Shown: positions 1-43,593, counted from the stretch's first letter. The stretch is DNA of 64,000 nucleotides from Chlamydiota bacterium (GCA_021772435.1 JAJFLZ010000018.1:199-64198), one strand, 5' to 3'. Translations and numbers: made by a program. The notes: generated by a model from the letters alone, not told the origin.

Positions 1-1320
1 TAAAATCCCGTTCTGCGCTTTTTTCGGCAAAATGCGAGCTCTCATCGCGCCAGCTATATCATTTATCTGCTTATTATTAACGGTAGAAGGATTTATTCCA
101 CCAGCCTCACCTATAATACCAGCGGTACTACGCATCTTCTCATTGACGCTTAATGTTAAGAGCCTCTTTGTTTCTTCTGATACATTTAATTTCTCAATGC
201 AGTTAAGTAAATACTTGGTTTTTAGATCAAGGAAGCTAGCTCCTGCAGCAAACATATCTGATGCTCTAGAATTCACAGATTTCTCGCGTTTAATAAATGG
301 ATACCAAACTTCGGGCGGAATAAATCCAGGGCTTCCTGAAGGGCCTGACAGCGTTTCTTCTTTTATCGGCATTGGATCAATGAGTATAGCTCGACCTGCT
401 TTGCTAATTAACACGTTATCAGGTTTAAGATCTCTATGGACAACGTCATGGTCATGGTAAAAATTTAACCCACTTGCAATATCGCTAACAAATTGAAGCA
501 ATTGCTCACTAGACTTAGCTGCAATATGGCAAGCATCTCCCAAGCTTAGCTCAGTCACTGTAAATTCACGATGGTCATTTAACCAACCGTAGGCTAATGG
601 GGAACCTTCGACATTAGAATGCTTAGCATCTTTAAATAGCTCTTGAAACGTTTTAATATCACTAGCATAAGACATCTCTTCAACGGGTTGCTCGCGCTTT
701 AAAGTGCGGTGCATACAAACTTCTTTAACCGCAAATGAATCATCATTCAGCGGTTTAATCAAGATTCCTTTTCTGACTCTACTAAAAGAACTTTTGCTAC
801 CAATCTTCTCACCGTGAATAAGATATTCAAAAATTACGTTTTTATCGTTAGGTATAGGTGTAACAGAAAAGGGCAAGGGGGAATTATTTTTACGTAGCCG
901 CTGATCCTGAATCGTCTCTTTACCATTTAGTTTCTTTCCATAAGTTAGATTAAAATATTCAGAAACTATATCCAAGTCCAGGATTTCTAATTTGTTTTCT
1001 GTTAATTTATTAACTCTCTCTGCAAAAGATTTACCAGATGGTTTTTTAGCGCTATCTGTTAGATCAACAAATGTACTTTTTGCAACCTCATCTACTTTCG
1101 CAGCAGATGCTTGAACAGGTGTTTTTTTAGCGCTATCTGTTAGATCAGTAAATGTATGTGTGCTTAGATAATGAATAAAAAATACAGATCCGATAATCGT
1201 TAAAGACAATAAGCCTAGCGCCACAAGCGCAACTAAGCTTCCTTTTTTTAGTGGTTCTTCAGAGTTAGAATAAGACCCTCTACTTTTCGCATAAGTTAAT
1301 TCCGGATGTAATAACGCCAT
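1..1320 (-). CDS. Membrane-anchored eukaryotic-like Ser/Thr protein kinase domain protein, partial (3' end runs off the window; absent from supplied ORF track)
   Basis: Hand translation of the minus strand from ATG 1320-1318 stays open for all 440 codons down to nt 1 (MALLHPELTYAKSRGS...). It has one TM helix (LVALVALGLLSLTIIGSVFFI), a subdomain-II Lys (FAVKEV), the catalytic loop HRDLKPDN (nt 415-438), and GFIPPE in place of APE. A 27-aa internal repeat TFxDLTDSAKK lies at nt 1041-1075 and 1121-1156. Confidence 0.8.
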   Translation of the reverse strand, partial: MALLHPELTYAKSRGSYSNSEEPLKKGSLVALVALGLLSLTIIGSVFFIHYLSTHTFTDLTDSAKKTPVQASAAKVDEVAKSTFVDLTDSAKKPSGKSFAERVNKLTENKLEILDLDIVSEYFNLTYGKKLNGKETIQDQRLRKNNSPLPFSVTPIPNDKNVIFEYLIHGEKIGSKSSFSRVRKGILIKPLNDDSFAVKEVCMHRTLKREQPVEEMSYASDIKTFQELFKDAKHSNVEGSPLAYGWLNDHREFTVTELSLGDACHIAAKSSEQLLQFVSDIASGLNFYHDHDVVHRDLKPDNVLISKAGRAILIDPMPIKEETLSGPSGSPGFIPPEVWYPFIKREKSVNSRASDMFAAGASFLDLKTKYLLNCIEKLNVSEETKRLLTLSVNEKMRSTAGIIGEAGGINPSTVNNKQINDIAGAMRARILPKKAQNGIL

Positions 1321-1488
1321 ATATATTCCTATTATTTTTTACTAATTATAATATATATTATAACACATTTTATAAAGAATGTAAATAATTATTTAATCAC
1401 TAGTTTTAAGTAACTTACAGGCTCATTTCGATCAGGGCTGGACGTTTAAAATATCCTCTTGTACTCTACGTGAAAAAGGAGCGCTCAG

Positions 1489-4067: not shown

Positions 4068-4741
4068 AAACAATCATTCCCGGTGACTATCAAGAGACGC
4101 TCAAGTACGCCACAGAGCACTTTGTGCAGCTTGCAAACGCAGCGATTGAAAAACATGGCGCTTTTCACGTTGCGCTATCAGGAGGATCCACACCCAAAGC
4201 CATCTTTAAAATGCTGTCTGGCCCGCCGTATGCTAAACAAGTCGACTGGCAAAAAGTTTGGCTCTACTGGAGCGATGAGCGGTGCGTGCCCCACGACGAT
4301 CCTGAAAGTAACTACAAAATGGCGATGGATGCCGGCCTAAAATCTTTGCCAATTCCAGAAAACCAAATCTTTCGCATGGAAGGCGAGCTAGATCCGGACG
4401 AGGCTGCTACCCGCTACGAATCCATTCTGCCAAAAAAATTTGACCTCATCATGCTCGGCATGGGCGATGATGGACACACGGCCTCGCTCTTTCCAGACAC
4501 GGAAGCCCTAAACGAAAAAAATCGCCTTGTCGCTCCCAACTTTGTACCTCAAAAAGATTCTTGGCGCATCACCTTCACCTTCAAATGCCTTGCCGAAAAC
4601 GACCCCGTGATCTTCTACGTTCTTGGAGCCGGTAAAGCCGAGATCGTCAAAAAAGTTCTTACCGCCAAGGACTATCCTGCCAGCCACGTTCAAAATGCCC
4701 AGTGGATTTTGGATGCCGAAGCTGGTAAACTTATTGAATGA
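4064..4741 (+). CDS. pgl: 6-phosphogluconolactonase
   Basis: 225-aa ORF with motifs ALSGGSTP, WSDERCV and GMGDDGHTASLFP. It is coupled to opcA and tsaD by 4-nt overlaps. Confidence 0.93.
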   Translation: MKTIIPGDYQETLKYATEHFVQLANAAIEKHGAFHVALSGGSTPKAIFKMLSGPPYAKQVDWQKVWLYWSDERCVPHDDPESNYKMAMDAGLKSLPIPENQIFRMEGELDPDEAATRYESILPKKFDLIMLGMGDDGHTASLFPDTEALNEKNRLVAPNFVPQKDSWRITFTFKCLAENDPVIFYVLGAGKAEIVKKVLTAKDYPASHVQNAQWILDAEAGKLIE

Positions 4742-5697
4742 ATGTCCTTGGAATTGAAACAACCTGCGATGAAACAGCGATTGCTATTGTCAAAGATGGC
4801 AAGAAAATTTTATCAAATAAAATTGCCTCGCAAGCGGACCTGCACGCCATCTACGGCGGCGTCTTCCCAGAGCTTGCCTGCCGCCGCCACATTGACGTCA
4901 TCCTGCCCCTCATCGACGATGCCCTCCAAGAAGCCAACCTAACCTCTAACGAGATCGATCTCATCGCCGTGGCCCATGGCCCCGGCCTCATGGGAGCCCT
5001 CCTCATTGGCCTAACCACTGCCAAGACCCTCTCCATGGCCTGGAACAAACCCCTCATCGGCGTCAATCACATCGAAGCTCACCTTTACGCTTCCATGATG
5101 GATCACGATCCCATCCTGCCTGCCATTGGCCTTGTCCTCTCTGGCGGCCACACCACCCTCCTCGAAATCGAGGCTCTTGGCAAATACAAAAAACTCGGCG
5201 CCACAGTCGACGATGCGATCGGCGAGTGCTTTGACAAAGTCGCCCGCATGCTATCACTTCCCTATCCTGGTGGGCCTGAAATTGAAAAACTTGCTCTCTC
5301 TGGCAATCCACACGCCTACAGCCTAAAAGCTGGCCAAGTCAAAGGGCGCCCGCTCGACTTTTCCTTCAGCGGCCTCAAAACCAAAGTCCTCTACACTCTT
5401 AAAGAAGACAACATCAATCATGCTGACCTAGCTGCCAGCTTCCAGCATGCAGCGTTTTCTGACATCGTCAAAAAAACCAAACTAGCAGCAAAGCCAGGTC
5501 AAGCCATTTACCTGGGTGGCGGCGTCACTGCCAGCCGCTACTTACGCAAATTATTTGAAAAAGAAAATGTATACTTTCCAGGTCCAGATCTCTCGACAGA
5601 CAACGCCGCCATGATCGCAGGTCTTGGCTACCACGTTTTTAAGGCCAAAGGCCCCGACCGCTTGGACCTCGAAGCCCTGCCTAGAATTCCTTTCTAA
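4738..5697 (+). CDS. tsaD: tRNA N6-adenosine threonylcarbamoyltransferase
   Basis: 319-aa ORF with GIETTCDETA at the N-terminus, GVNHIEAHLY, and C-terminal STDNAAMIA, typical of the Kae1/TsaD family. Confidence 0.93.
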   Translation: MNVLGIETTCDETAIAIVKDGKKILSNKIASQADLHAIYGGVFPELACRRHIDVILPLIDDALQEANLTSNEIDLIAVAHGPGLMGALLIGLTTAKTLSMAWNKPLIGVNHIEAHLYASMMDHDPILPAIGLVLSGGHTTLLEIEALGKYKKLGATVDDAIGECFDKVARMLSLPYPGGPEIEKLALSGNPHAYSLKAGQVKGRPLDFSFSGLKTKVLYTLKEDNINHADLAASFQHAAFSDIVKKTKLAAKPGQAIYLGGGVTASRYLRKLFEKENVYFPGPDLSTDNAAMIAGLGYHVFKAKGPDRLDLEALPRIPF

Positions 5698-5754
5698 AAG
5701 TATTGAAATATATTCATTAATTGACTAAAATTTTTCTATAAAAGGAGAAATATT

Positions 5755-6528
5755 ATGTCATCTATTTCAAAAATCGCAAGCGCACTGCCTTCAGCAGCAC
5801 CAACTCAAAGCACTATCAACAAAATTGTTGAACTTGCGCGAAATAACATCTTTTTAACGGCTGTGATCACCTTAGGTGCAGGCTGTGCAATAGGTTATGC
5901 AGTGCATAAATATGTAATAACGCAAGAAAAACCAATACACTCATTAGAAAATAGCCCAGACATTCTAAAGCTGATCAAAACTCCAAATTTCAAATTCAAA
6001 GACTTTGCTGAAACCTGTAGGCTCGATGTGTATGAAATATTCCGATGTGTTTCCGAAGAAAAAGACACATTCAATAAAAATATTGATGACGCAGATTTCA
6101 AAAAACTACGAACCGATCCGAAAAGTGTTTTGCGCCAAAGCGCTAACATCGCCTACTTCCTCTTGGCCGATACAGATAATGAGCGATCAAACCGATTAGG
6201 CATAGTTAAAACAAATTTAGGATCTACAAGAGAAGCCATTAATCGACTTGTTAAACATAGCTACTTAGAGGACAAAAAGCATCCGATTTACAAATGGTGC
6301 ATCAATCATATCAAAACATCTATTCAAAAAGACGACATCCCATCTGCAGTTCAAACACTAAAAGCTCTAAAAAACTACCATTCTAATTGTAAATTCTGGT
6401 CTAAAATGTATGCTAGTACCCACGGGCATGAGCCTACATCCAATCTCCCACCCAGTATTTCAGAAATTATGGCTGATCTTTCTGATGATGAAAAAAGCAA
6501 ACTACCTAAGCCACTACCAGTTGATTAG
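5755..6528 (+). CDS. Hypothetical single-pass membrane protein (cassette 1 between tsaD tails)
   Basis: 257-aa ORF, AT-rich, with a strong SD aaggag 7 nt upstream of the ATG. It has one hydrophobic helix (IFLTAVITLGAGCAIGYAV). No motif recognised. Confidence 0.7.
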   Translation: MSSISKIASALPSAAPTQSTINKIVELARNNIFLTAVITLGAGCAIGYAVHKYVITQEKPIHSLENSPDILKLIKTPNFKFKDFAETCRLDVYEIFRCVSEEKDTFNKNIDDADFKKLRTDPKSVLRQSANIAYFLLADTDNERSNRLGIVKTNLGSTREAINRLVKHSYLEDKKHPIYKWCINHIKTSIQKDDIPSAVQTLKALKNYHSNCKFWSKMYASTHGHEPTSNLPPSISEIMADLSDDEKSKLPKPLPVD

Positions 6529-6542
6529 TAAAAACGTCCCTG

Positions 6543-6651
6543 TCTCTCGACAGACAACGCCGCCATGATCGCAGGTCTTGGCTACCACGTTTTTAAGGCC
6601 AAAGGCCCCGACCGCTTGGACCTCGAAGCCCTGCCTAAAATCCCTTTTTGA
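6543..6651 (+). repeat. Direct repeat: second copy of the tsaD 3' tail (copy 1 = 5589-5697)
   Basis: Read by eye, 105 of 109 nt are identical to 5589-5697. The four differences lie in the last 21 nt and keep the peptide EALP(R>K)IPF plus a stop codon (taa>tga). Confidence 0.95.
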
Positions 6652-6695
6652 CTGTATCTAAAACTTTTAGTAAACTTCTGTTAGGAGTTATTTAA

Positions 6696-8288
6696 ATGCC
6701 TAAAAAATTACCTATCGGTGTCCAGTCCATCGAGAAGCTTTTATCCGAAGACTTTATCTATGTTGATAAAACAGACAAAATTAAACAGCTAATTGACAGC
6801 GGAAGCCACTATTTCATAGCGCGTCCAAGGCGATTTGGAAAATCTTTATTTGTAAGCACACTAGAAGCTATTTTAAAAGGGAACAAAGACCTGTTTGCAG
6901 ATTGCAAAATCGCTAAAACAGACTATGACTGGGTAGAGCACCCAGTGATTCACTTCGACTTTGCCCAAATTCCAAATAAATCTACTGATGATCTAGAAAA
7001 TAGTATTAAGCGAAAACTAGAACACGTTGCTAAAGAACACAATATTTCCATCGAAATCCCTACCTTGCAAGAGGGGCTGATCAATCTAGTCAAAAAACTT
7101 GCAGAAAAAAACCAAGTAGCCATTCTGGTCGACGAGTACGACAAACCCAAGGTGGATCATCTAAATAATATCGAGATAGCAGATAGTAACCGCGATTTTT
7201 TACGTCGATTTTTTGGTACACTTAAAGGGTTAGATCAGCATCTAAAATTTGTTTTTTTTACAGGTGTTAGCAAATTCGCTCAGGTTTCTCTTTTCTCCGG
7301 CTTAAATAACTTAGAAGACCTGACAATGGACCCAAGTAGCTCTGAGCTGATGGGGTACACAAAAGACGAGCTCAAGGAAAATTTTAAAGAACACATTGCA
7401 GAATTAACAAAGAAAACAAATTGTGCCCCTGAACAGATTTTGAAGATGGTAAAAGAGTGGTACAATGGCTACTGTTTTTCTCAAAATTGTGTTCCTGTCT
7501 ACAATCCTTTTTCAACGCTTTCCTATTTTAAGCGAGGCATCTTTCACGGATACTGGTTTAGCACTGGCACTCCTGCATTCTTAATCGAACAAATCCGTAA
7601 AATGCCCATGCTGTCTACGCAACTCAGCGGCGCTTTATCTACAAGCTCGGAGCTACTAGATATTCTTTCCATGACAGATGTCGACCTAAACGCTTTGATG
7701 TGGCAAACCGGCTACCTAACCATTACAGCTTACGACCCCCAAACAGATCTATATACCCTTGATTTTCCGAACAAAGAAGTGCGAGGAGCCTTTTTTAATT
7801 CCTTGATTAGAGAATTTGCTAAACTCAATTTATCAGGTGTTACAGGCAATGCAAAAGCAATCTGCTCTCATTTAGCCAAATTAGATTTTGAAACTTTTTT
7901 TAAAACCATCAATGCGTACTACGCCAAAATCCCCTACCACCTGTTCACGCAAGCAAAAGAGGGATTTTATCACGCAGTATTTTTGTGCTTGATGGAAGGA
8001 ATAGGTTTACAAGTGAGGGCTGAAGATCCTACGAATATGGGCCGCCTGGATTTAGTCATCGAAACCGACCAAACCGTCTATATTTTTGAGCTCAAAGTCG
8101 ACAAAAGTGCAACTGTTGCTCTAGACCAAGCTGAACTTAATCGCTATTGTGAAAAGTATTCACACCAAAACCGCAATATTGCCATGATCGGCGTTAACTT
8201 TGCCACAGCGACTCGCAACATCTCCGATTGGGCAGTTAATCTTTATGCTCCGGATGCTAACTTAATCCAAAAATATGCGTTGCTTTAG
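6696..8288 (+). CDS. AAA-ATPase-like / PD-(D/E)XK nuclease family protein (cassette 2)
   Basis: 530-aa ORF. The N-terminus LPIGVQSIEKLLSEDFIYVDKTDKIKQLIDSGSHYFIARPRRFGKSLFVSTLE matches the predicted AAA-ATPase (PF09820-type) family that carries a C-terminal PDDEXK_9 domain (RLDLVIE...IFELKVD). SD aggag lies upstream. Confidence 0.8.
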   Translation: MPKKLPIGVQSIEKLLSEDFIYVDKTDKIKQLIDSGSHYFIARPRRFGKSLFVSTLEAILKGNKDLFADCKIAKTDYDWVEHPVIHFDFAQIPNKSTDDLENSIKRKLEHVAKEHNISIEIPTLQEGLINLVKKLAEKNQVAILVDEYDKPKVDHLNNIEIADSNRDFLRRFFGTLKGLDQHLKFVFFTGVSKFAQVSLFSGLNNLEDLTMDPSSSELMGYTKDELKENFKEHIAELTKKTNCAPEQILKMVKEWYNGYCFSQNCVPVYNPFSTLSYFKRGIFHGYWFSTGTPAFLIEQIRKMPMLSTQLSGALSTSSELLDILSMTDVDLNALMWQTGYLTITAYDPQTDLYTLDFPNKEVRGAFFNSLIREFAKLNLSGVTGNAKAICSHLAKLDFETFFKTINAYYAKIPYHLFTQAKEGFYHAVFLCLMEGIGLQVRAEDPTNMGRLDLVIETDQTVYIFELKVDKSATVALDQAELNRYCEKYSHQNRNIAMIGVNFATATRNISDWAVNLYAPDANLIQKYALL

Positions 8289-8289
8289 C

Positions 8290-8331
8290 AGCCACCTCAG
8301 CCTCGAAGCGCTCCCTAGAATTCCTTTTTGA
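8290..8331 (+). repeat. Direct repeat: third, shorter and more diverged copy of the tsaD 3' tail
   Basis: gaa gcg ctc cct aga att cct ttt tga versus tsaD gaa gcc ctg cct aga att cct ttc taa. All differences are synonymous, and weaker similarity extends about 12 nt further upstream. Confidence 0.8.
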
Positions 8332-9277
8332 GTATAGCAATCTGTTCTTTGATACCTTCTAAGCCTGAATCTGGATACAGATTGACATCGTATGGTTTTT
8401 TCCACTGCTTTTTATTGTTGATATGCTCAAGACGAAGCTCTTTGAGCCTATCAATATCGCCATCCCAAGCTTTTGAGATGCGGTGCGAAGGAGCATCTAA
8501 GCGAAAGAATTTCACATACTCGCCATTGTGTTTCTGAGCGGTTTCTTGATCTTTAAAATGAGTAGAATCTGCTCTAAACTTTTTGCAAGCAAAATAGAAT
8601 TCTTCTTTGAGTTTATCTTCAGCGATTTCAAAGTCATGCATCATCACAACATCAAGCTCACCAAATTTAGCGAAATGCTGAGGTAAACCTGCCTTGATTT
8701 GACCAGCTCTTAGCATCATGTATTCAGGCTTTTCTGTTTTTGAAAAATCGATAACAACCCGCGCTCCACCAATTGTTAAATAACCCTGATCAGTATCGAT
8801 TTGGCAAATGTTTTTATCCCCAAGATCCATTTTTAAACCATCAAGATCAGCGACCCCACTTTTCTCTACTGCTAAGTGGCTAAGAGCTGCCAAGGCGATG
8901 CGGTGAGCAAGTAGTTCTGTGCTTTCAATATTTTCGCCATCGCGGGACTGATCCATGATGCTTAGGGCACCAATATTGAGCAGCTTTTGCCCTGTTTGAA
9001 CCTTAAACAGGATCATACGACCCTTATCGTCCTTTCCAGGACCATCGATAATGGGGTTAATCAGCAAGCTGGTGCCCTCGCAAGGAGGTAATTTCAGCTG
9101 TTTGTCAAAAGTGACTGTGCCTAAGTTTCCTAAGATAACATTGGCTTCATTCAAAGCCTTGGCAACTAGACCACCACATACCTTCTCAAGGCTCATGGCG
9201 TGATCCTGAGCAAATATACGCACCTCCTCAATGGAGGCTGGCACTTTCGGCAAATGAGCTGGTACATCGTAAATCAT
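8315..9277 (-). CDS. Hypothetical protein, no recognisable domain
   Basis: 320-aa ORF with no TM or signal peptide. Its last five codons are antisense to tsaD tail copy 3. It is preceded by a consensus promoter (next feature). Confidence 0.7.
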   Translation of the reverse strand: MIYDVPAHLPKVPASIEEVRIFAQDHAMSLEKVCGGLVAKALNEANVILGNLGTVTFDKQLKLPPCEGTSLLINPIIDGPGKDDKGRMILFKVQTGQKLLNIGALSIMDQSRDGENIESTELLAHRIALAALSHLAVEKSGVADLDGLKMDLGDKNICQIDTDQGYLTIGGARVVIDFSKTEKPEYMMLRAGQIKAGLPQHFAKFGELDVVMMHDFEIAEDKLKEEFYFACKKFRADSTHFKDQETAQKHNGEYVKFFRLDAPSHRISKAWDGDIDRLKELRLEHINNKKQWKKPYDVNLYPDSGLEGIKEQIAILKKEF

Positions 9278-9283
9278 GCCGGT

Positions 9284-9312
9284 ATTATACCAAAAAAGCC
9301 GTATTTCGTCAA
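9284..9312 (-). promoter_or_regulatory. Sigma70-type promoter TTGACG-17-TATAAT predicting a leaderless mRNA for the 320-aa gene
   Basis: The minus strand reads aacTTGACGaaatacggcttttttggTATAATaccggcATG. The spacer is exactly 17 nt, and the ATG (9277) lies 6 nt after the -10 hexamer, where +1 is expected. No SD is present. Confidence 0.6.
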
Positions 9313-9453
9313 GTTAGATTTTGAGCTGAAAATAAATGCTTTCTATAAATTTAGCTAAGCTTGGCTCCTCAAATTTTTCGGCAAAAGCGAGGGGCATTAT
9401 CCATGAGAAACGACGCCGCTAAAAACCGGTATTTTGAATTTACTTCGGTATAC

Positions 9454-10356
9454 CTATTTTGTAGATGATAATAGATGTTTATTTGCATGACTCCAATCTT
9501 TACCAAATTGTATTGCCATCCATCGATTTAAAACTGAAATGATACTTTCTATCGATTCGGGAAGACTCATCAGGTTTTTTTGTGTCCTATTCTTTCTTAA
9601 ATAACTATTCCAATTTTTCTGAAGAGCTTCAAACTCATCATTATTAAATATGACTGGTAATTTACTAAGAAGGGTTTTTCTATGACGAAACACCAACTCA
9701 ACAGCTTTTTTCGCAAGTGGGCCATCTAAAGCAGATAACTGGATAAGTGAATAAATATCATGAAAATCTTTCATTCTCGTATTGCTACTTCCTCGGAACA
9801 CAACTGTTTCTAATTTCTCGGCAAAAATGAACTCTTTAGGATAACACTGCAACGTAATCCTGCTCTCAAAAAGTGGCCCTTTCGATGTTGCTGTTAAATC
9901 TATTGGGTGTTCAACCGATTCTACGCAATCACCAAATCCTAAATCCATGCGCATGGTCGTTCTTGTAGCTCCAAATAGAGCTCTAAGTGTAATTTCGGCC
10001 CCTGTATAAGCTAGTTGGGAATGGTCTAGGATTTTGATTTTAACCAATTCAAAAGCAAAGCTATCTTCCACGCTGATCTCGCAAATGGCTTGTAAAACGA
10101 TCTTCAGAGACTGCTGTGCGTTGGACAATTTACGCACAAAAAAATCAAGATCCATGGTTTCTCTGCCAATATAGATATATTTTGCTAAAAGAGTACCACC
10201 TTTAAGTATAAATTTTTCTTTATACGGAGATTGAGCTAAGCGAATTAAAAATCTCTCGAGAATTAAATTCCTCCAAAGCTCAGCAAAAGTGGTCTCTCTC
10301 TGCTTGGCCAAAGCTTTGATTTTCTCTTTGATTGATTGTTCAATGGCATTTTTCAT
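9454..10356 (-). CDS. abiEii: AbiEii/AbiGii-family nucleotidyltransferase toxin (type IV TA)
   Basis: 300-aa ORF. The N-terminal ERFLIRLAQSPYKEKFILKGGTLLAKYIYIGRETMDLDFF matches the DUF1814/AbiEii NTase signature (KGG...R.T.DLDF). An ATGA overlap couples it to the upstream antitoxin gene. Confidence 0.85.
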   Translation of the reverse strand: MKNAIEQSIKEKIKALAKQRETTFAELWRNLILERFLIRLAQSPYKEKFILKGGTLLAKYIYIGRETMDLDFFVRKLSNAQQSLKIVLQAICEISVEDSFAFELVKIKILDHSQLAYTGAEITLRALFGATRTTMRMDLGFGDCVESVEHPIDLTATSKGPLFESRITLQCYPKEFIFAEKLETVVFRGSSNTRMKDFHDIYSLIQLSALDGPLAKKAVELVFRHRKTLLSKLPVIFNNDEFEALQKNWNSYLRKNRTQKNLMSLPESIESIISVLNRWMAIQFGKDWSHANKHLLSSTK

Positions 10357-10949
10357 AACATGAAGGCCGAAATGTAAGAGGTTATGTCAACTCTAAGCTT
10401 TTTTGAATATCTTAAGAGCTTTTCGATGTCTGGCTTTTTATTTTTGCATTCTTTCAAATAAATTTGTAGTGCTTTTAACGCTGTTTCTTTGTCCAAATAG
10501 CGAAAGGCATCTACTATCGTGCGCTCGCGATCGAAAATTTTGAGTTTTCTATTATCGATTTTAACAGTTGTTTGGCCAAGAGTTATATTTCGCATCCGAA
10601 TGACACGAGTATTTTCCCTAACTGGAGCTGAAGTCGTATGTGCAACAGCAATCCAAAACTGTCGCATGATTTCATCAGTCAAATCGTAATAGCATAAAGC
10701 CGAAACTAGACAGATGACCCCATTGGGAATACTTAACGCAGTAACAGCAAGGTCTTCCCATTCAAATCCTTCGTGAAAATCGAAATTGTTAATTTTATAC
10801 ATCCCTCGGCTAATCCGTTCGATTTGCCCTTTTTCACAAAAATAAGCGAGCATTCTAGAAGGGATTCCTGCTTTTCGTCCTTCTGCGGAAGAGAACACCG
10901 CTTTTTTTGACAGAGCTTTTAGCGCTACTGCATACTTTGATTTTGCCAT
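10353..10949 (-). CDS. abiEi: AbiEi-family antitoxin / transcriptional regulator (type IV TA)
   Basis: 198-aa ORF. The N-terminal wHTH-like segment (AGIPSRMLAYFCEKGQIERISRGMYKI) is typical of AbiEi_4. It lies immediately 5' of abiEii with a 4-nt overlap. Confidence 0.8.
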   Translation of the reverse strand: MAKSKYAVALKALSKKAVFSSAEGRKAGIPSRMLAYFCEKGQIERISRGMYKINNFDFHEGFEWEDLAVTALSIPNGVICLVSALCYYDLTDEIMRQFWIAVAHTTSAPVRENTRVIRMRNITLGQTTVKIDNRKLKIFDRERTIVDAFRYLDKETALKALQIYLKECKNKKPDIEKLLRYSKKLRVDITSYISAFML

Positions 10950-10972
10950 ATTTAATATGTAACACAGAAACC

Positions 10973-11044
10973 CATTTATTACAATTGGGTGCTGCTATTA
11001 CATTTATTGCAAGGCATTTAGTTGTTATACACTTATTGTAAGGG
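10973..11044. promoter_or_regulatory. Three direct repeats CAYTTATTRYAAGG at 28-29 bp spacing upstream of abiEi (candidate operators)
   Basis: catttattacaattggg (10973), catttattgcaaggc (11001) and cacttattgtaaggg (11030) lie 24-95 nt upstream of the abiEi start codon (10949, minus strand). Confidence 0.4.
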
Positions 11045-11162
11045 TCTTATAATATTTAAGCCGTTTCAGTATCGCCATATTTAACGCTTTTGATGTTGAA
11101 AAATTTGAAGTGTACAGGATTATAGGGGTCTGCTATACTGGTCTAAAAATTGGAGTTGTCAC

Positions 11163-11324
11163 ATGGCTAAGAAGAAAACCCGTGAAGCAGTTAAACTTAA
11201 AAGCTCAGAGAGCGATCACATGTATTGGACGCGCAAGAATAAGAAGAAATGCCCAGAGCGCATGGAACGCAATAAGTATGATCCAACTCTTAGACGCCAC
11301 GTGCTTTACAAAGAATCTAAATAA
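11163..11324 (+). CDS. rpmG: 50S ribosomal protein L33 (below the ORF-track length cutoff)
   Basis: Hand translation gives MAKKKTREAVKLKSSESDHMYWTRKNKKKCPERMERNKYDPTLRRHVLYKESK (53 aa), which fits the L33 pattern (Y.T.KNK....R.E..KYDP..R.HV..KE.K). SD ggag lies upstream. Its TAA is followed directly by the lolC ATG. Confidence 0.85.
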   Translation: MAKKKTREAVKLKSSESDHMYWTRKNKKKCPERMERNKYDPTLRRHVLYKESK

Positions 11325-12776
11325 ATGAAATTTGAGCTTGGGCTCGCTAAAAAATATCTTTTGCCCAAACGCAGGCAATTAAGTGTCTCTTTAATTTGCT
11401 TGCTATCTGTTTTTGTCATCACACTTGTGGTGTGGCTACTTTTGACGTTTTTGTCTGTGATGAGCGGCATCGAAAAGGGCTGGCTCGCCAAATTAACATC
11501 ACTCAATGCCCCCTTACGCATTAATCCTACTGAAAAGTATTTTAACTCATATTACTACAAAATCGATTCAGTGTCTGGCGCCTCCCATTATTCTGTAAAG
11601 ACAATTGGTGAAAAGCTGCGCTCAGAATGGGTCGATCCATACGACACAGAAAGCGATATGGAAATCCCCCTCGATTGGCAGCTGCCCGAGAAAAATACTG
11701 AGGGAGAGTCGCTTGATCTGGTTAAGGAAGCTTTTGCAGCAGTCGACAAGGTGTCTCATACGGCAGCTCAAGAGTATGATATGAGCGGCGCCATGCTCAG
11801 GTTAAAACTGGTGCGTGGTGATTTCCACAGTTTTGTTACGCAAGCTGCCTATTTGACAACGTTTGCTGATCAAAGCCCTACAGTAAAAAAACTTCTTTCT
11901 GAGCCGATGGATGAAATTTTACCCAATGATCGGGGCGAACCAGGGATTTTGATCCCGAAAAGCTTTGAAGGTAATGGCGTGAGGCAAGGCGATCGCGGCT
12001 TTTTGTCGTACGGCAGCGGCTCTACAGGACAGGAGCAAAGATTAGGTGTGTACGTAGCCGGTTTTTACGACCCAGGCATTATGTCAATTGGCCCCAAATG
12101 CTTGCTCGTGCCCAAGTCTATCGCTGAGAATTTGCACACAGCCGGTGAAGCCTATACCCTCGATCGCACGCAAGCAACCGGTATTCAGGTTTGGTTTGAC
12201 GATTTGAAAGAGGCCCAGGCGATTAAGGCGAAGCTTCAAGACGAGTTTGAACAAAGGGGCATCGCACCGTATTTTACGATTACAACTTATCACGATTATG
12301 ATTTTGCTAAGGATCTGCTCCAGCAGTTTGAAAGCGATAAGATGCTGTTTACATTGATTGGCGTGATTATTTTGGTCGTGGCTGCTAGCAATATTATTTC
12401 ATCGCTGATTTTGCTTGTGAATAACAAGAAAAAAGAGATCGGTATTTTGCAGTCGATGGGAGCTAGCCGAGCTAGCATCACGATGGTGTTTGCCATTTGC
12501 GGGATCACAATTGGCCTTGTGAGCTCACTCGTTGGCGGCTTAGCTGCCTATTTGACATTGCATAACATTGATCATGTCGTGCAGTTTTTGAGCTGGATGC
12601 AGGGTCACGATATGTTTAATGCGCTCTTTTACGGCGCCAGCCTTCCAAACACTTTAAGCGCTGATAGTGTGAAATTCATTTTGATTGCAACACCGCTGAT
12701 CTCTCTTTTGGCAGGCCTTGTGCCGGCGATTAAAGCCTCCCGCATGCAACCGAGCGATATTTTGAGGTCGTCATGA
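11325..12776 (+). CDS. lolC: LolC/E-family lipoprotein-releasing system permease (FtsX-like)
   Basis: 483-aa ORF with an N-terminal TM, a large periplasmic loop, then the C-terminal FtsX domain (KKKEIGILQSMGASRASI and 3 TM). It lies upstream of lolD with a 4-nt overlap. Confidence 0.8.
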   Translation: MKFELGLAKKYLLPKRRQLSVSLICLLSVFVITLVVWLLLTFLSVMSGIEKGWLAKLTSLNAPLRINPTEKYFNSYYYKIDSVSGASHYSVKTIGEKLRSEWVDPYDTESDMEIPLDWQLPEKNTEGESLDLVKEAFAAVDKVSHTAAQEYDMSGAMLRLKLVRGDFHSFVTQAAYLTTFADQSPTVKKLLSEPMDEILPNDRGEPGILIPKSFEGNGVRQGDRGFLSYGSGSTGQEQRLGVYVAGFYDPGIMSIGPKCLLVPKSIAENLHTAGEAYTLDRTQATGIQVWFDDLKEAQAIKAKLQDEFEQRGIAPYFTITTYHDYDFAKDLLQQFESDKMLFTLIGVIILVVAASNIISSLILLVNNKKKEIGILQSMGASRASITMVFAICGITIGLVSSLVGGLAAYLTLHNIDHVVQFLSWMQGHDMFNALFYGASLPNTLSADSVKFILIATPLISLLAGLVPAIKASRMQPSDILRSS

Positions 12777-27187: not shown

Positions 27188-28165
27188 ATGACAACAATAT
27201 CAAATGATCTAACCACCCCGCCAATCACTCAGGACACTTCACCCCAAACACTTTCAGACAAATTGGACAGCCTCATGGGTCTTGTAAAAAAGCAAAATGA
27301 GACAATGGCTACTATGCAGACTCAGATACAGTTTCTAGTAGAAAAACAAACAGAAGACTATGCTGTTAAGCAAAAATGCTTAAAAATTATACAGACTCTA
27401 TGCCCAGAAGCAAAAATTGAAAACATCTCTGATGGCATTGTTCTATTCGCTGGAGATTTTAAGCAGCTACTTGAATTTTCTGGAAAAGTCACCCGAAATA
27501 ATAATCTTGGAAACATGGCATTGCAAGAAGATAATTACGAAAAAGCTAAAAGCCATTTCGAAATAGCTAAAATGGGTCTAGAACAGATACTCCCCAAAGC
27601 CAATTCAAACGTTCCCTTTTCACCGCTAGCTTCTTTTGATCCTATCTTAATATCTACGTATGAATCCTTAATGCAAAACCTGACAAAATGCGACACAAAA
27701 CTTTTATTAAAAAATAAAATCCAAGCTCAAGATGCTATAGCTAATATTAAAAAACTTCAAGTTTTCTATGAAGAACAAATGATCAGCGGAAAAATTGTCA
27801 TTGATGTAAAAAAACACAAGGCCTTAGATCATACGTTAGGCCTATACCTTTTTTTAAATAAAGATTACACAGCAGCTCTAACCATCCTTGAAGATGATCA
27901 TAAAATAAATCCTGACAATCTTTACACTCTTTATTGCATAGGGAATTGCCAAGATCAGCTAGGAAACACTGAAGTAGCAAAAGAAAACTACGAGAAACTA
28001 AACGAAAAGATCGATGCTGTTGAAACATACAAATTCTTTTCTGAATACTGCTTGGAATTTGAATTTGAACTCTTGATTGCTAAGCCTGTTGATTCTGCGG
28101 ACCAGAACAAAAAAGCAATGCAAGATAAAGTGAATACCCACTTAGAAAATCTGAATCTAGAGTAA
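27188..28165 (+). CDS. AT-rich hypothetical protein with TPR-like repeats
   Basis: 325-aa ORF with TPR-like segments (LGNMALQEDNYEKAKSHFEIA; LGLYLFLNKDYTAALTILE; LYCIGNCQDQLGNTEVAKENYEKL). There is no signal peptide. Confidence 0.6.
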   Translation: MTTISNDLTTPPITQDTSPQTLSDKLDSLMGLVKKQNETMATMQTQIQFLVEKQTEDYAVKQKCLKIIQTLCPEAKIENISDGIVLFAGDFKQLLEFSGKVTRNNNLGNMALQEDNYEKAKSHFEIAKMGLEQILPKANSNVPFSPLASFDPILISTYESLMQNLTKCDTKLLLKNKIQAQDAIANIKKLQVFYEEQMISGKIVIDVKKHKALDHTLGLYLFLNKDYTAALTILEDDHKINPDNLYTLYCIGNCQDQLGNTEVAKENYEKLNEKIDAVETYKFFSEYCLEFEFELLIAKPVDSADQNKKAMQDKVNTHLENLNLE

Positions 28166-35646: not shown

Positions 35647-36804
35647 ATGCATAAGCGATTTTTTGAACCTCCCGAAGGCAGCTATTTTTTATTCGGTCCC
35701 AGAGGCACAGGTAAATCTACTTGGCTCAAACGTCAATATCCAAAAGCCCTTTGGATCGATTTACTCGACCCGGAAACACTGCGCTTTTATGCAGCAGGCC
35801 CTGAAAGACTGCGCAGTATAATCGAAGAAAATCCAGCCACAAAGACAATCGTTATCGACGAAGTCCAAAAAGCACCCGATATTCTCAACGTCGTCCACAG
35901 TCTCATCGAAGAAAAACGTGGGTTCCAATTTGTTTTGACAGGATCTAGCTCTAGAAAACTGAAAAAACATGGTGTCAATCTGCTCGGTGGACGTGCTCTT
36001 TTACGTCACATGCCCACATTCTATGCAGCAGAACTAGGCGCGGATTTTGCGCTAGCAAAGAATTTAAAAATCGGGATGCTCCCTATTGTCAACGATTCGC
36101 CCCACCCTGCTGATGTTCTCAAAGCATATGCCGGCATCTATTTAAAAGAAGAAATTCAAGCTGAAGGGATTGTGCGCAATGTAGGCGACTTTGCTAGATT
36201 TTTAGAAACGATGAGTTTTTCTCATGCCAACCTTCTCAACGTTTCCAATATTTCTCGTGAATGCCATATCTCACGCAACACCGTGAACAGCTATCTACTC
36301 ATTTTGGAAGATCTACTCCTTTCTTTTCAGCTTTCTGTCTTTACCCGTAAAGCAAAAAGAGAACTTACACATCAGACCAAATTTTATTTTTTTGACTCTG
36401 GCGTTTATTACTCTATTCGTCCAAAAAATATTTACGATGTCGAAACTGAGCAAGAAGGTTTAGCCTTAGAAGGACTAGTAGCTCAGCATCTCAAAGCCTG
36501 GACCGATAGCCAACTAGAAAAACATCAATTGCATTTTTGGCGCACCAAAACACAAGTGGAAGTAGATTTTATCGTTTCAGGTCCTAGTTGTTTTCTGGCC
36601 ATTGAAGTTAAAAACAGTAAAACTGTGCACCCACAAGACACTCGCTCTTTGCAAATCTTCCTCGAGGACTATCCCCAAGCAACGCCCGTTTTACTCTATC
36701 GCGGTAATAAGCGGTACAAAGAAAAAAACGTTTTATGCTGCCCTGTGGATGATTTTTTAAAGTCCATTCATCCGGATAAAGCTATTGGCGGTGTTTTTTC
36801 TTGA
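35647..36804 (+). CDS. Orphan AAA+ ATPase (AAA_14 + DUF4143 type)
   Basis: 385-aa ORF with Walker A GPRGTGKST, Walker B VIDEVQ, and a C-terminal EVDFIV...IEVK nuclease-like motif. SD aggag lies upstream. Its 3' end overlaps convergent def by 23 nt. Confidence 0.8.
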   Translation: MHKRFFEPPEGSYFLFGPRGTGKSTWLKRQYPKALWIDLLDPETLRFYAAGPERLRSIIEENPATKTIVIDEVQKAPDILNVVHSLIEEKRGFQFVLTGSSSRKLKKHGVNLLGGRALLRHMPTFYAAELGADFALAKNLKIGMLPIVNDSPHPADVLKAYAGIYLKEEIQAEGIVRNVGDFARFLETMSFSHANLLNVSNISRECHISRNTVNSYLLILEDLLLSFQLSVFTRKAKRELTHQTKFYFFDSGVYYSIRPKNIYDVETEQEGLALEGLVAQHLKAWTDSQLEKHQLHFWRTKTQVEVDFIVSGPSCFLAIEVKNSKTVHPQDTRSLQIFLEDYPQATPVLLYRGNKRYKEKNVLCCPVDDFLKSIHPDKAIGGVFS

Positions 36805-43476: not shown

Positions 43477-43560
43477 ATGCGTTGACAACGCCGTGTTTTA
43501 CTCTAAACCATGCGCTACCAACGCATGAAAACAGCCCAAACCATGCGTTGACAACGCATG
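43477..43560. promoter_or_regulatory. Three palindromic sites phased at exactly 33 bp (candidate operator array)
   Basis: atgcgttgacaacgc (43477-43491) is a partial palindrome. catgcgctaccaacgcatg (43509-43527) has 6-bp arms. catgcgttgacaacgcatg (43542-43560) is a perfect 9+1+9 palindrome. Copies 2 and 3 share the prefix aaacc. Confidence 0.7.
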
Positions 43561-43576
43561 ATTTTCATGGTATTAT
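43548..43576 (+). promoter_or_regulatory. Sigma70-type promoter TTGACA-17-TATTAT embedded in the perfect palindrome
   Basis: TTGACA (43548-43553) forms the centre of palindrome 3. After a 17-nt spacer, tattat lies at 43571-43576. The ATG at 43594 follows, with aagg 6 nt upstream. Confidence 0.55.
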
Positions 43577-43593
43577 TTGAAAAAAGGCCAAAG

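What the first reader, a model, noticed from the sequence alone, without database searches (positions are those of the whole stretch)
5698..10949. AT-rich accessory island with defence-island character containing two unrecognisable genes
Five AT-rich genes sit between the GC-rich core genes tsaD and rpmG. They are a 257-aa single-TM protein, an AAA-ATPase/PD-(D/E)XK protein, a 320-aa protein with no motif I can recognise, and an AbiEi/AbiEii type IV toxin-antitoxin (abortive-infection) pair. Defence genes are known to cluster, so the two unknown genes (5755-6528, 8315-9277) are candidates for new defence or addiction components by guilt-by-association. An Abi-type module is also noteworthy in what appears to be an obligate intracellular lineage.
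Basis: inference. Interest (0 to 1): 0.65.

Follow-up and report, generated by a model that had tools for sequence, protein, structure and literature searches.

The report
Patchwork gene islet beside chlamydial tsaD
A 5.4-kb stretch of foreign-looking DNA in an environmental chlamydia is real, but it was built by several separate insertions at one hotspot, so the two unknown genes sit next to the one real toxin-antitoxin/abortive-infection module by accident of location and not because they work with it.

Summary
The stretch is the lowest-GC 5.25 kb of the window (39.2% against 44.6%, z = -4.2). In 13 of 18 chlamydial relatives tsaD and rpmG are adjacent. The AbiEi/AbiEii and AAA-ATPase/PD-(D/E)XK calls are correct.

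The "defence island" reading is only partly supported. The islet is a mosaic of at least three insertions of different ages. The tsaD 3' end occurs three times (5589-5693, 6543-6647, 8301-8336) and brackets the 257-aa and ATPase-nuclease modules. The AbiE pair is a separate ~1.8-kb insertion, absent from the only close relative. That relative still has the 320-aa gene beside rpmG.

AbiE is closest to copies on Criblamydia and Protochlamydia plasmids (76% and 50% identity). The ATPase-nuclease is closest to one on the Simkania plasmid (50%). The 320-aa protein has only two relatives among ~15 billion proteins, neither near known defence genes, and it evolves 6-9 times faster than its neighbours. 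The 257-aa protein is a strict orphan. Structure prediction failed for both, so their functions remain unknown.

This is a new member of known kinds, of modest interest.

The parts
4738..5697 (+). tsaD, the core gene whose 3' end is the insertion target
   Evidence: 60% aa identity to Chlamydiia TsaD. GC 52.6%.
5589..5693 (+). Copy 1 of the tsaD 3'-end repeat (the functional end of tsaD). The looser repeat limits are 5582-5708.
   Evidence: perfect 95-nt identity block 5589-5683 shared with copy 2. Reads ...PRIPF, ending TTC TAA.
5755..6528 (+). u257: orphan 257-aa protein with one N-terminal transmembrane segment. It is the cargo of the newest module, a 954-bp unit.
   Evidence: only self-matches in 5.8 billion clusters; no plasmid or viral hit. 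TM segment at residues 32-50. AAGGAG ribosome-binding site upstream of the ATG; promoter-like site at 5703-5731. GC3 0.32.
6543..6647 (+). Copy 2 of the tsaD 3'-end repeat, a non-functional duplicate of the last 36 codons plus stop. The looser limits are 6536-6662.
   Evidence: 98% identity over 105 nt; translates LSTDNAAMIAGLGYHVFKAKGPDRLDLEALPKIPF*; ends TTT TGA, like copy 3.
6696..8288 (+). DUF1703-family protein: AAA-ATPase_like N-terminal domain plus PDDEXK_9 nuclease C-terminal domain
   Evidence: PF09820 8e-58 and PF08011 1e-16; 50% identity to a protein on Simkania plasmid pSn. P-loop RRFGKS and D...ELK nuclease motif intact; family described in PMC6387759.
8301..8336 (+). Copy 3 of the tsaD 3'-end repeat, decayed. 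Read in antisense, it overlaps the last codons and stop codon of u320.
   Evidence: 36 nt at 83% identity; 27 nt at 92.6%, E = 3.5e-5 against the 64-kb window; still reads PRIPF*, ending TTT TGA.
8315..9277 (-). u320: 320-aa soluble protein from a three-member family. It is fast-evolving and an older resident of the locus.
   Evidence: only P0002 (53%) and P0004 (29%) are related; dN 0.37 against 0.04-0.06 for rpmG and lolE, dN/dS about 0.22; core-like codon usage; the N-terminus is conserved from M1, so the 293-aa public annotation is probably too short.
9284..9312 (-). Promoter-like site for u320 (TTGACG, 17 nt, TG-n-TATAAT). It ends 6 nt before the ATG.
   Evidence: 11 of 12 consensus matches with an extended -10; the -35 element lies in sequence conserved with L001.
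9314..9332 (+). Left junction of the AbiE insertion; a degenerate direct repeat of the target spacer
   Evidence: L001 homology stops at about 9313-9324 and resumes at about 11098. TTAGATTTTGAGCTG here corresponds to AAAATTTGAAGTG at the right junction.
9454..10356 (-). abiEii, the DUF1814 nucleotidyltransferase toxin
   Evidence: Pfam and PADLOC matches; motifs G53-G54, R65, D69-x-D71, K181...R188 and K196-D197-xx-D200 are all present; 76% identity to the Criblamydia plasmid copy.
10353..10949 (-). abiEi, the antitoxin/repressor. It overlaps abiEii by 4 nt.
   Evidence: PADLOC AbiEi 2e-78 over the full length. AbiEi_4 wHTH domain; 76% identity to the Criblamydia copy.
10956..11004 (-). Operator-like inverted repeat upstream of abiEi (two 19-nt arms separated by 11 nt, with an ACCCA-N11-TGGGT core)
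   Evidence: 12 of 19 positions complementary here, against 18/19 on the Criblamydia plasmid and 18/20 on the Protochlamydia plasmid, with the same spacing.
11099..11121 (+). Right junction of the AbiE insertion, where homology with L001 resumes
11163..11324 (+). rpmG (L33), the core gene that is the ancestral neighbour of tsaD

Best explanation
The region is a mosaic accessory islet. It was built by at least three separate insertions into one hotspot, the 3' end of tsaD and the short tsaD-rpmG spacer, in an environmental chlamydia.

Shown:
- The ancestral state is tsaD directly followed by rpmG.
- The tsaD terminus is present three times. The copies bracket single-gene modules, each with its own promoter-like site.
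- The AbiE pair is a discrete ~1.8-kb insertion into the u320-rpmG spacer and is absent from the sister lineage.
- The recognisable cargo is most similar to genes on chlamydial plasmids.

Inferred:
- Each module entered by Campbell-type (single-crossover) integration of a small circular DNA that carried a copy of the target sequence. The crossover was made either by a recombinase supplied in trans or by homologous recombination across the ~100-nt identity.
- New arrivals land next to tsaD. The order of age is therefore u320 and the DUF1703 gene (oldest, with ameliorated composition), then AbiE, then u257 (newest, with a 95-nt perfect repeat).

Function:
- AbiEi/AbiEii most likely works as a self-contained, autoregulated type IV toxin-antitoxin. 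AbiEii is a growth-arresting nucleotidyltransferase, and AbiEi is both antitoxin and repressor. The pair was inherited from a plasmid addiction/abortive-infection module.
- The DUF1703 protein is a stand-alone ATPase-nuclease of unknown role, typical of the mobilome of intracellular bacteria.
- u320 and u257 are not parts of the AbiE system. Their role is unknown. My best guess is lineage-specific accessory proteins, u320 soluble and fast-evolving and u257 membrane-anchored, possibly involved in host interaction.
For: Hotspot and insertion: 13 of 18 chlamydial loci have tsaD and rpmG about 50-320 bp apart, and 5 carry 0.45-1.8 kb of unrelated sequence.

Triplicated tsaD end. All three copies still read P[R/K]IPF-stop. 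Copies 2 and 3 share the TTT TGA ending. Copy 1 has TTC TAA, as expected if the newest element supplied the present gene end.

Independent recurrence: the Chlamydiia MAG L016 has a 112-nt tsaD-3' unit repeated 3.0 times in tandem, starting within 6 codons of the same position.

AbiE as a separate insertion: L001 shares 92% RpmG and 91% LolE identity and has the u320 homologue 106 bp from rpmG with no AbiE. The junctions map to about 9314-9332 and 11099-11121.

Age layering from three independent lines: repeat decay (98% against 83%), presence or absence in L001, and composition (GC3 0.31-0.34 with deviant codon usage for u257 and AbiE, against 0.40 with core-like usage for DUF1703 and u320).

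Plasmid pool: AbiEii is 76% identical to the Criblamydia plasmid copy and 50% to the Protochlamydia plasmid copy, with the next best about 32%. DNA identity to the Criblamydia plasmid is 72.5% over 1,492 bp, including the promoter. DUF1703 is 50% identical to the Simkania pSn copy.

AbiE integrity: 4-nt gene overlap, all mutagenesis-defined residues present, and a conserved operator architecture.

u320 is a real gene with dN/dS about 0.22.

Precedent for serial islands bounded by repeats of a gene's 3' end, including integrase-less units: PMC3146451.
Against: - No integrase, transposase or tRNA lies in or near the islet. No plasmid carries a tsaD-3' fragment that could serve as attP. The integration mechanism is therefore inferred, not shown.
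- Copy 3 is short (27-36 nt), and part of it is conserved coding sequence of u320. L001 lacks the 14 nt upstream of it.
- No repeat flanks u320 itself, and four of the five relatives with extra sequence at this junction show no tsaD-end repeats.
- L001 is only 1,645 bp long. The tsaD side of that locus is unseen, and the DUF1703-like reading of its last 75 bp rests on a short RNIS motif.
- The window's AbiE operator is degenerate (12 of 19), so regulation may be altered.
- dS is saturated, so dN/dS is approximate.
- No function was established for u257 or u320. Both AlphaFold models have low confidence (pLDDT 41 and 46).
Confidence: 0.7

Rival explanations
1. One reading: a defence island in which the 257-aa and 320-aa genes are new defence or addiction components acting with or alongside AbiE and the ATPase-nuclease.
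For: A genuine AbiE pair is present. Integration hotspots are where defence genes tend to accumulate. The PF09820 ATPase domain is listed among domains seen in some defence systems. u320 evolves fast, as arms-race genes do. u257 shares the foreign composition of AbiE. Three other low-GC singletons in the window match PADLOC's unvalidated candidate ATPase families, so this genome may hold unrecognised defence genes.
Against: No PADLOC hit for u257 or u320. u320 predates the arrival of AbiE and persists without it in L001. Its distant homologue has no defence neighbours. The modules are separately bounded insertions, with u320 convergent to one neighbour and carrying its own promoter, so they do not form an operon. 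Other chlamydiae carry non-defence cargo at this junction, such as a PAP2 phosphatase and low-complexity secreted proteins. AbiE is a complete two-gene system by the published criteria.
Confidence: 0.1
2. u320 and/or u257 are chlamydial host-interaction proteins. u320 would be a secreted (for example type III) effector and u257 a membrane-anchored, inclusion-membrane-like protein. They simply reside at a variable locus.
For: Both are lineage-restricted. u320 has 6-9 times the amino-acid substitution rate of its neighbours while still under purifying selection, and no signal peptide or TM segment. u257 has an N-terminal TM anchor. The window also encodes ankyrin- and TPR-repeat proteins of the kind found in amoeba symbionts. 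C34, H201 and D215 are invariant in the three u320 sequences, and C34 lies near the start of a predicted helix. That pattern is compatible with a Cys-His-Asp hydrolase; this is my inference only.
Against: No secretion signal can be tested with these tools. u257's hydrophobic segment is single, not the bilobed type of Inc proteins (sequence). There is no Pfam or PDB similarity to any effector or protease family even at E <= 10. The structure models are unreliable and Foldseek returned nothing. The organism carrying P0004 was not identified.
Confidence: 0.25
3. The tsaD-end copies come from local tandem duplication or replication slippage of an unstable gene end. Cargo was later inserted between the copies by illegitimate recombination, and no att-type integration was involved.
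For: L016 shows a pure tandem triplication of the same tsaD segment with no cargo. There is no integrase in the window and no plasmid-borne tsaD fragment. The modules (0.95 and 1.7 kb) are far smaller than usual integrative elements.
Against: In the window each interval between copies holds exactly one complete gene with its own promoter-like site and ribosome-binding site. The cargo abuts the repeats tightly: the u257 stop codon is 7-14 nt from copy 2. The sequence just to the right of the identity block differs between copies in the way an attL/attR exchange predicts. The AbiE insertion at a different point of the locus is also flanked by duplicated target sequence.
Confidence: 0.2
4. The islet, or its repeat structure, is an assembly or binning artefact of a metagenome-assembled genome.
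For: The source is a MAG. The Logan assemblies of the same samples break at the repeats, and one contig (L002, 984 nt) overlaps itself by 30 nt with a 954-nt period.
Against: Copies 1 and 2 differ at their ends and have distinct flanks, so they are separate loci. An independent Logan contig, L085, covers rpmG, AbiE, u320 and DUF1703 contiguously. L002 and L003 link the tsaD end to u257 and to copy 2. Breaks at a 95-nt exact repeat are expected for a k = 31 assembly graph. L001, from a different sample, confirms the u320-rpmG linkage.
Confidence: 0.03

Closest known systems
AbiE (AbiEi/AbiEii) type IV toxin-antitoxin / abortive-infection system of Streptococcus agalactiae and Lactococcus (Dy et al. 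2014, PMC3985639)
   Same: Bicistronic, with the same 4-nt overlap. The toxin is a DUF1814 nucleotidyltransferase with motifs I-IV, including every residue whose mutation abolished toxicity. The antitoxin has two domains, with an N-terminal wHTH. An inverted repeat spans the promoter.
   Different: Only about 30% identity to non-chlamydial AbiEii. The operator is a single pair of 19-nt arms spaced by 11 nt, not 23-nt arms spaced by 3 nt, and is degenerate in this copy. The module is chromosomal in an obligate intracellular lineage. No functional data exist.
AbiE pairs annotated on the Criblamydia sequanensis CRIB-18 plasmid and on Protochlamydia naegleriophila pPNK
   Same: 76% and 50% amino-acid identity for both genes. 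The same operator architecture. 72.5% DNA identity over 1.49 kb, promoter included.
   Different: Those copies are on plasmids, next to terL and an integrase in one case and IS elements in the other. This copy is a bare 1.8-kb chromosomal insertion with no mobility gene and a longer AbiEii C-terminal tail.
DUF1703 family (AAA-ATPase_like + PDDEXK_9) expanded in Cardinium, Rickettsia and Simkania (Siozios et al. 2019, PMC6387759)
   Same: The same two-domain architecture with intact P-loop and D...ExK motifs. Closest to the Simkania pSn paralogue. Found in the mobilome of intracellular bacteria.
   Different: Single copy in this window. The family's function is unknown, so nothing can be transferred by homology. 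It is not a PADLOC family member.
Tandem genomic islands bounded by direct repeats of a gene's 3' end, including integrase-less cis-mobilizable elements formed by accretion (Dehalococcoides ssrA islands, PMC3146451)
   Same: Serial low-GC modules downstream of a single-copy essential gene, each bounded by a repeat of that gene's 3' end. Older units farther from the gene are more ameliorated. Some units lack an integration module.
   Different: The target is a protein-coding gene (tsaD), which I did not find reported as an att site. The modules are tiny single genes of 0.95-1.7 kb. The repeats are long (95-105 nt). No integrase is present anywhere in the 64 kb.
Defence islands (clusters of several anti-phage systems)
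   Same: A variable, horizontally acquired locus containing one Abi/TA system.
   Different: Only one recognised system is present, with no second known defence gene, and the neighbours were acquired at different times.

Membership tests
AbiE type IV TA/Abi | Bicistronic abiEi-abiEii operon with antitoxin first and the genes overlapping | tested here: met
   abiEi (10353-10949) and abiEii (9454-10356) lie on the same strand with a 4-nt overlap, as in S. agalactiae.
AbiE type IV TA/Abi | Toxin is a DUF1814/PF08843 nucleotidyltransferase with motifs I-II (hG[GS]...R...DhD), III (K...R) and IV (+DxxD) | tested here: met
   PF08843 5e-36 and PADLOC AbiEii 2e-72 over the full length. G53-G54, R65, D69, D71, K181, R188 and K196-D197..D200 are present and invariant in three chlamydial copies. 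The criteria come from PMC3985639.
AbiE type IV TA/Abi | Antitoxin with an N-terminal winged-HTH domain and a C-terminal neutralising domain | tested here: met
   AbiEi_4 domain at residues 14-51. The full-length PADLOC AbiEi model covers residues 3-194 of 198, E = 2e-78.
AbiE type IV TA/Abi | Inverted repeats in the promoter that serve as the AbiEi operator | tested here: inconclusive
   An inverted repeat with 19-nt arms spaced by 11 nt lies at 10956-11004, but only 12 of 19 positions are complementary. The homologous plasmid sites score 18/19 and 18/20, with arm sequences that differ between lineages yet stay complementary. Binding was not tested.
AbiE type IV TA/Abi | Toxicity of AbiEii, neutralisation by AbiEi, and phage resistance or plasmid stabilisation | not testable with these tools
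   These require expression and phage assays.
DUF1703 (AAA-ATPase_like + PDDEXK_9) | N-terminal PF09820 domain and C-terminal PF08011 domain in one protein | tested here: met
   PF09820 at residues 6-200 (8e-58) and PF08011 at residues 421-512 (1e-16). The architecture is as defined in PMC6387759.
DUF1703 (AAA-ATPase_like + PDDEXK_9) | Intact P-loop and PD-(D/E)XK catalytic residues | tested here: met
   RRFGKS at residues 45-50. GRLD...FELK at about residues 450-469 is conserved with the Simkania homologue.
Defence island | Several distinct known defence systems clustered together | tested here: not met
   PADLOC recognises only AbiE among the five proteins. The ATPase-nuclease gives only a 32-residue match to candidate family PDC-S26 (7.6e-5).
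Defence island | Homologues of the unknown genes recurrently located next to defence genes in other genomes | tested here: not met
   u320 has two homologues. One neighbours rpmG (L001), and the other neighbours LysM, AstE/AspA, MFS and pheT genes (L084), with no PADLOC hits. u257 has no homologue at all.
Site-specific integrative elements / cis-mobilizable elements in tandem (accretion) | Each unit is bounded by direct repeats of the target gene's 3' end (attL/attR) | tested here: met
   Three copies of the tsaD end at 5589-5693, 6543-6647 and 8301-8336 bound the u257 and DUF1703 modules.
Site-specific integrative elements / cis-mobilizable elements in tandem (accretion) | An integrase or recombinase encoded in at least one unit or nearby | tested here: not met
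   Gaps between the genes of the islet are at most 213 bp, leaving no room for a further gene. No homologue of the Criblamydia plasmid integrase exists in the 64-kb window (best E = 0.33). There are no tRNA genes.
Site-specific integrative elements / cis-mobilizable elements in tandem (accretion) | Excision to a circular form and an empty attB site | not testable with these tools
   The Logan contig L002 has a 30-nt self-overlap with a 954-nt period. That fits either a circle or the integrated repeat. Read-level analysis is needed.

The most novel reading that the evidence does not exclude
The tsaD 3' end could be a cassette-capture site in Chlamydiia. Integrase-less single-gene modules, each with its own promoter and a ~100-nt copy of the tsaD terminus, would be inserted serially next to tsaD by a recombinase supplied in trans, for example from the chlamydial plasmids that carry the nearest AbiE and DUF1703 relatives. 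They might still excise as mini-circles, such as the 954-bp u257 unit. The independent tandem triplication of the same tsaD segment in L016 would then be an empty array of the same system. u257 and u320 would be previously unknown cargo functions, either defence/addiction or host-interaction.
Probability: 0.12. Interest if true: 0.6.

Novelty: new member of a known kind. Interest (0 to 1): 0.3.

Why it matters
Known anti-phage systems are reported as nearly absent from Chlamydiae, and TA modules as rare in obligate intracellular bacteria. A sequence-intact AbiE module that has moved from the chlamydial plasmid pool into a chromosome therefore adds a data point on gene flow and addiction or defence modules in this phylum.

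The more useful result is methodological. Guilt by association is unsafe at integration hotspots, because neighbours can be separate arrivals of very different ages. Here that could be shown from repeat boundaries, a sister-lineage comparison and compositional amelioration.

The recurrent duplication of the tsaD 3' end in two independent chlamydial lineages flags a possible, previously unreported insertion site that could be looked for in complete chlamydial genomes.

The two unknown proteins remain uncharacterised. They are too rare (three family members and one, respectively) to be of broad importance unless a function is found.

Tried and rejected
- Profile searches of u257 and u320 against Pfam (also at E <= 10 on all three u320 family members), NCBIfam, PADLOC, PHROGs and PDB sequences gave nothing credible. 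The weak u257 hits (Rgg_C E = 0.006; phrog_7208 E = 0.0095) are below threshold, and I rejected them.
- Word-indexed and exhaustive HMMER searches of about 15 billion proteins found only two u320 relatives and no u257 relative.
- tblastn against plasmids and pattern scans of metagenome and viral contigs found no further relatives.
- AlphaFold2 gave pLDDT 45.6 for u320 and 41.2 for u257, so both models are unusable. A Foldseek search of the PDB with the u320 model, run for completeness, gave a best E of 0.44 and TM about 0.1, which is meaningless.
- The LolE scan for close relatives of this genome found only 45-56% relatives. The window's own species is absent from the genome collection.
- A plasmid-borne tsaD-3' fragment that could act as attP was not found.
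- An integrase in the window was not found.
- A second AbiEi-like gene near 62.2 kb was rejected. The hit is 25% identity at E = 0.022 and lies in no credible ORF.
- tRNA genes and Rfam families in the window: none.
- A literature search for tsaD as an att site found nothing relevant.
- I considered a Cys-His-Asp protease reading of u320 from its invariant residues. I kept it only as speculation because no profile or structural support exists.

Full report
**1. What is there**

They are u257 (5755-6528, +), a 530-aa protein (6696-8288, +), u320 (8315-9277, -), a 300-aa protein (9454-10356, -) and a 198-aa protein (10353-10949, -). They lie between tsaD (4738-5697) and rpmG (11163-11324).

The family searches confirm three of them:
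- The 530-aa protein has AAA-ATPase_like (PF09820, 8e-58) plus PDDEXK_9 (PF08011, 1e-16).
- The 300-aa protein is AbiEii (PF08843, 5e-36; PADLOC 2e-72).
- The 198-aa protein is AbiEi (PADLOC 2e-78).

u257 and u320 have no credible hit in Pfam, NCBIfam, PADLOC, PHROGs or PDB sequences. u257 has one strongly hydrophobic segment at residues 32-50. The window's TsaD is closest (50-60%) to Chlamydiia MAGs, and the zwf-opcA-pgl...tsaD-rpmG-lolE-lolD synteny is shared with them. The organism is therefore an environmental member of the Chlamydiota. Its own species is not in the genome collection.

**2. Is it compositionally distinct?**

Yes, but unevenly. The stretch is 39.2% GC against 44.9% for the rest of the window. 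It is the lowest-GC 5.25-kb window, at z = -4.2. u257, abiEii and abiEi have GC3 of 0.31-0.34 (z about -2 to -2.4), and their codon-usage distance from the core ranks among the five most deviant against the 42 core genes. The DUF1703-type gene and u320 have GC3 of 0.40 and codon usage indistinguishable from the core.

**3. It is an insertion at a hotspot**

In 13 of 18 chlamydial loci, tsaD is followed by rpmG-lolE-lolD after only about 50-320 bp. Five others carry 0.45-1.8 kb of extra sequence at the same junction. In four of them this is unrelated cargo: a PAP2 phosphatase, low-complexity secreted-looking proteins and unknowns, none with a credible PADLOC hit. In the fifth, L016, it is a tandem array of the tsaD 3' end (section 4). 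The window's 5.4 kb is the largest load seen at this junction.

**4. Internal anatomy: three copies of the tsaD terminus**

The last ~105 nt of tsaD (5589-5693) recur at 6543-6647. Identity is 98%, with a perfect 95-nt block, and the copy still reads as the last 36 TsaD codons plus stop. A decayed third copy lies at 8301-8336 (36 nt at 83%; 27 nt at 92.6%, E = 3.5e-5).

The copies bracket the u257 module (a 954-bp unit) and the ATPase-nuclease module (a 1,680-bp unit). Each module has its own promoter-like site and ribosome-binding site just inside the repeat. All three copies encode P[R/K]IPF-stop. Copies 2 and 3 end TTT TGA, whereas the functional copy 1 ends TTC TAA. That is what Campbell-type integration predicts if the incoming DNA carries its own version of the target gene's end.

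Copy 3, read in antisense, forms the last codons and the stop codon of u320. An independent Chlamydiia MAG (L016, TsaD 53% identical) has a 112-nt tsaD-3' unit repeated 3.0 times in tandem with no cargo. That array starts within six codons of the same position. The other 17 relatives have no extra copy.

No integrase homologue, tRNA gene or Rfam family is present in the window. No plasmid in PLSDB carries a tsaD-3' fragment. The Logan assemblies of the source samples break exactly at the 95-nt repeat, as expected for k = 31. One contig (L002) overlaps itself by 30 nt with a 954-nt period, which does not distinguish an integrated unit from a circle.

**5. AbiE is a separate, plasmid-type insertion**

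The only close relative is L001 (RpmG 92%, LolE 91% amino-acid identity). It has the u320 homologue 106 bp from rpmG, divergently oriented, with no AbiE between them. Alignment places the AbiE-bearing insertion between about 9314-9332 and 11099-11121. Degenerate duplicated target sequence is visible at both ends.

AbiEii is 76% identical to the copy on the Criblamydia sequanensis plasmid and 50% to the copy on Protochlamydia naegleriophila pPNK. Both plasmid copies have an adjacent AbiEi, and the next best hit is about 32%. DNA identity to the Criblamydia plasmid is 72.5% over 1,492 bp, including ~57 bp upstream of abiEi.

Measured against the criteria of Dy et al. 2014, the module is intact:
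- The genes overlap by 4 nt.
- G53-G54, R65, D69-x-D71, K181...R188 and K196-D197-xx-D200 are all present.
- The antitoxin has both domains.
- An inverted repeat with an ACCCA-N11-TGGGT core lies upstream of abiEi in all three chlamydial copies.

The arm sequences of that repeat differ in Protochlamydia but remain complementary (18/20, and 18/19 in Criblamydia). In the window only 12 of 19 positions pair.

**6. The ATPase-nuclease**

This protein belongs to the described DUF1703 family. That family is expanded in Cardinium and Rickettsia, is present in Simkania including plasmid pSn, spreads horizontally and has no known function. The nearest relative is on pSn at 50% identity. The P-loop and D...ExK motifs are intact. 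It is not a PADLOC family member. The last 75 bp of L001 translate on the reverse strand to ...SVRNISYKV..., which resembles the family's C-terminal RNI(S/N)DW motif. The relative probably has this gene too, but that evidence is weak.

**7. The two unknowns**

u320 belongs to a family of three sequences among about 15 billion proteins: itself, P0002 (53%, in L001) and P0004 (29%, in L084). P0004 lies among pheT, LysM, AstE/AspA, MFS and transposase genes with no defence hits.

u320 is a real gene under purifying selection (dN/dS about 0.22, with dS saturated). Its dN is 0.37, against 0.04-0.06 for rpmG and lolE in the same genome pair. It has a near-consensus promoter-like site ending 6 nt before the ATG, which suggests a leaderless or nearly leaderless mRNA. 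Its N-terminus is conserved from M1, so the public 293-aa annotation is probably 27 codons short.

u257 matches nothing but itself.

AlphaFold2 models were of low confidence (pLDDT 45.6 and 41.2), and Foldseek returned nothing. C34, H201 and D215 are invariant in the u320 family. A hydrolase triad is conceivable but untested.

**8. Interpretation**

Three independent lines agree on a layered history: repeat decay, presence or absence in L001, and compositional amelioration. u320 and the DUF1703 gene are old residents. AbiE arrived later in the u320-rpmG spacer. u257 arrived most recently, next to tsaD.

The neighbours are therefore together because the site is a hotspot, not because they function together. 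This undercuts guilt by association for u320 and gives no support to it for u257. AbiE is best read as a self-contained plasmid-derived addiction/Abi module. That AbiE can both protect against phage and stabilise mobile elements is established for the family.

Serial islands bounded by repeats of a gene's 3' end, including integrase-less units, are a known kind of structure. tsaD as the target, the tiny single-gene modules and the long repeats are the unusual aspects here.

**9. Context in the literature**

Known anti-phage systems are reported as nearly absent from Chlamydiae in RefSeq-based surveys. TA modules are reported in Chlamydia-related species but not in Chlamydiaceae. AbiE pairs are nevertheless already annotated on two chlamydial plasmids, so the module is not new to the phylum.

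**10. Verdict**

This is a new member of known kinds: an AbiE module, a DUF1703 gene and a hotspot islet bounded by repeats of a gene's end. It also contains two rare proteins of unknown function. Interest is modest (0.3). The most novel reading that remains open is a tsaD-end cassette-capture site in Chlamydiia, with a probability of about 0.12.

Noticed in passing
window 54426-55925 (-): A low-GC (37.7%) singleton gene encodes a 499-aa ATPase_2/AAA_16 protein. It matches PADLOC's unvalidated candidate family PDC-S27 over its full length (8e-172).
   Followed up: no
window 43558-44850 (+) and 35647-36804 (+): Two AAA_14 + DUF4143 proteins match PADLOC candidate family PDC-S01 (2e-119 and 1e-48). 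Together with the DUF1703 gene, this 64-kb window holds four scattered stand-alone ATPase genes of defence-candidate or unknown type. They are interspersed among core genes and do not form one island.
   Followed up: no
L016 10889-11219 (JBEIFH010000002.1, Chlamydiia MAG): The last 112 nt of tsaD are repeated 3.0 times head-to-tail (89% matches) with no cargo between the copies. This is an independent occurrence of tsaD-end multiplication at the tsaD-rpmG junction.
   Followed up: yes
window 9196-9277 (-), the start of u320: The public annotation (P0001, 293 aa) starts at M28. However, residues 1-27 are conserved in P0002 (MIYDVP invariant) and partly in P0004. The promoter-like -10 element ends 6 nt before the upstream ATG, with no Shine-Dalgarno sequence, which suggests a leaderless mRNA.
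   Followed up: partly
L002 (984 nt) and L003 (919 nt), Logan contigs of SRR15505517/18, equivalent to window 5589/5654-6572: The u257 module was assembled as a separate short contig in both runs. L002 starts and ends with the same 30 nt, giving a 954-nt period. That is compatible with a repeat-flanked integrated unit, but also with a co-existing circular form.
   Followed up: partly
L086 5955-10499 (Criblamydia sequanensis plasmid): The closest AbiE pair sits between a phage terminase large-subunit gene and a site-specific integrase, near a DNA methylase. This looks like a phage-like or integrative segment embedded in the plasmid.
   Followed up: no
window 461-1488: About 1 kb of AT-rich sequence (33-40% GC) upstream of zwf has no ORF of 60 aa or more and no Rfam hit. 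It may be a decayed gene or a long regulatory region.
   Followed up: no
window 27188-28165 (+) and 48135-49010 (-): These are a very low-GC (34.9%) TPR-repeat protein and an ankyrin-repeat protein. Both are eukaryote-like repeat proteins of the kind often expanded in amoeba-associated chlamydiae.
   Followed up: no
L005, L007, L008, L010, L011, L013-L015, L017-L019 and L092 compared with window 11325-12776: In many relatives the LolE-like permease aligns as two blocks separated by ~550-650 bp that are absent from the window's 483-aa protein. The variable segment is probably the periplasmic domain.
   Followed up: no
window 52940-53155 (+), inside ORF 52157-53374: There is weak similarity to an IS1-family transposase from pPNK (30% over 81 aa, E = 3e-4). 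It was not examined further.
   Followed up: no
window 60300-64000: There is no convincing complete ORF of 70 aa or more, and the listed ORFs look like off-frame translations. A long gene may run off the end of the window. The weak AbiEi-like tblastn hit at 62179-62439 (E = 0.022) lies here and is probably chance.
   Followed up: partly
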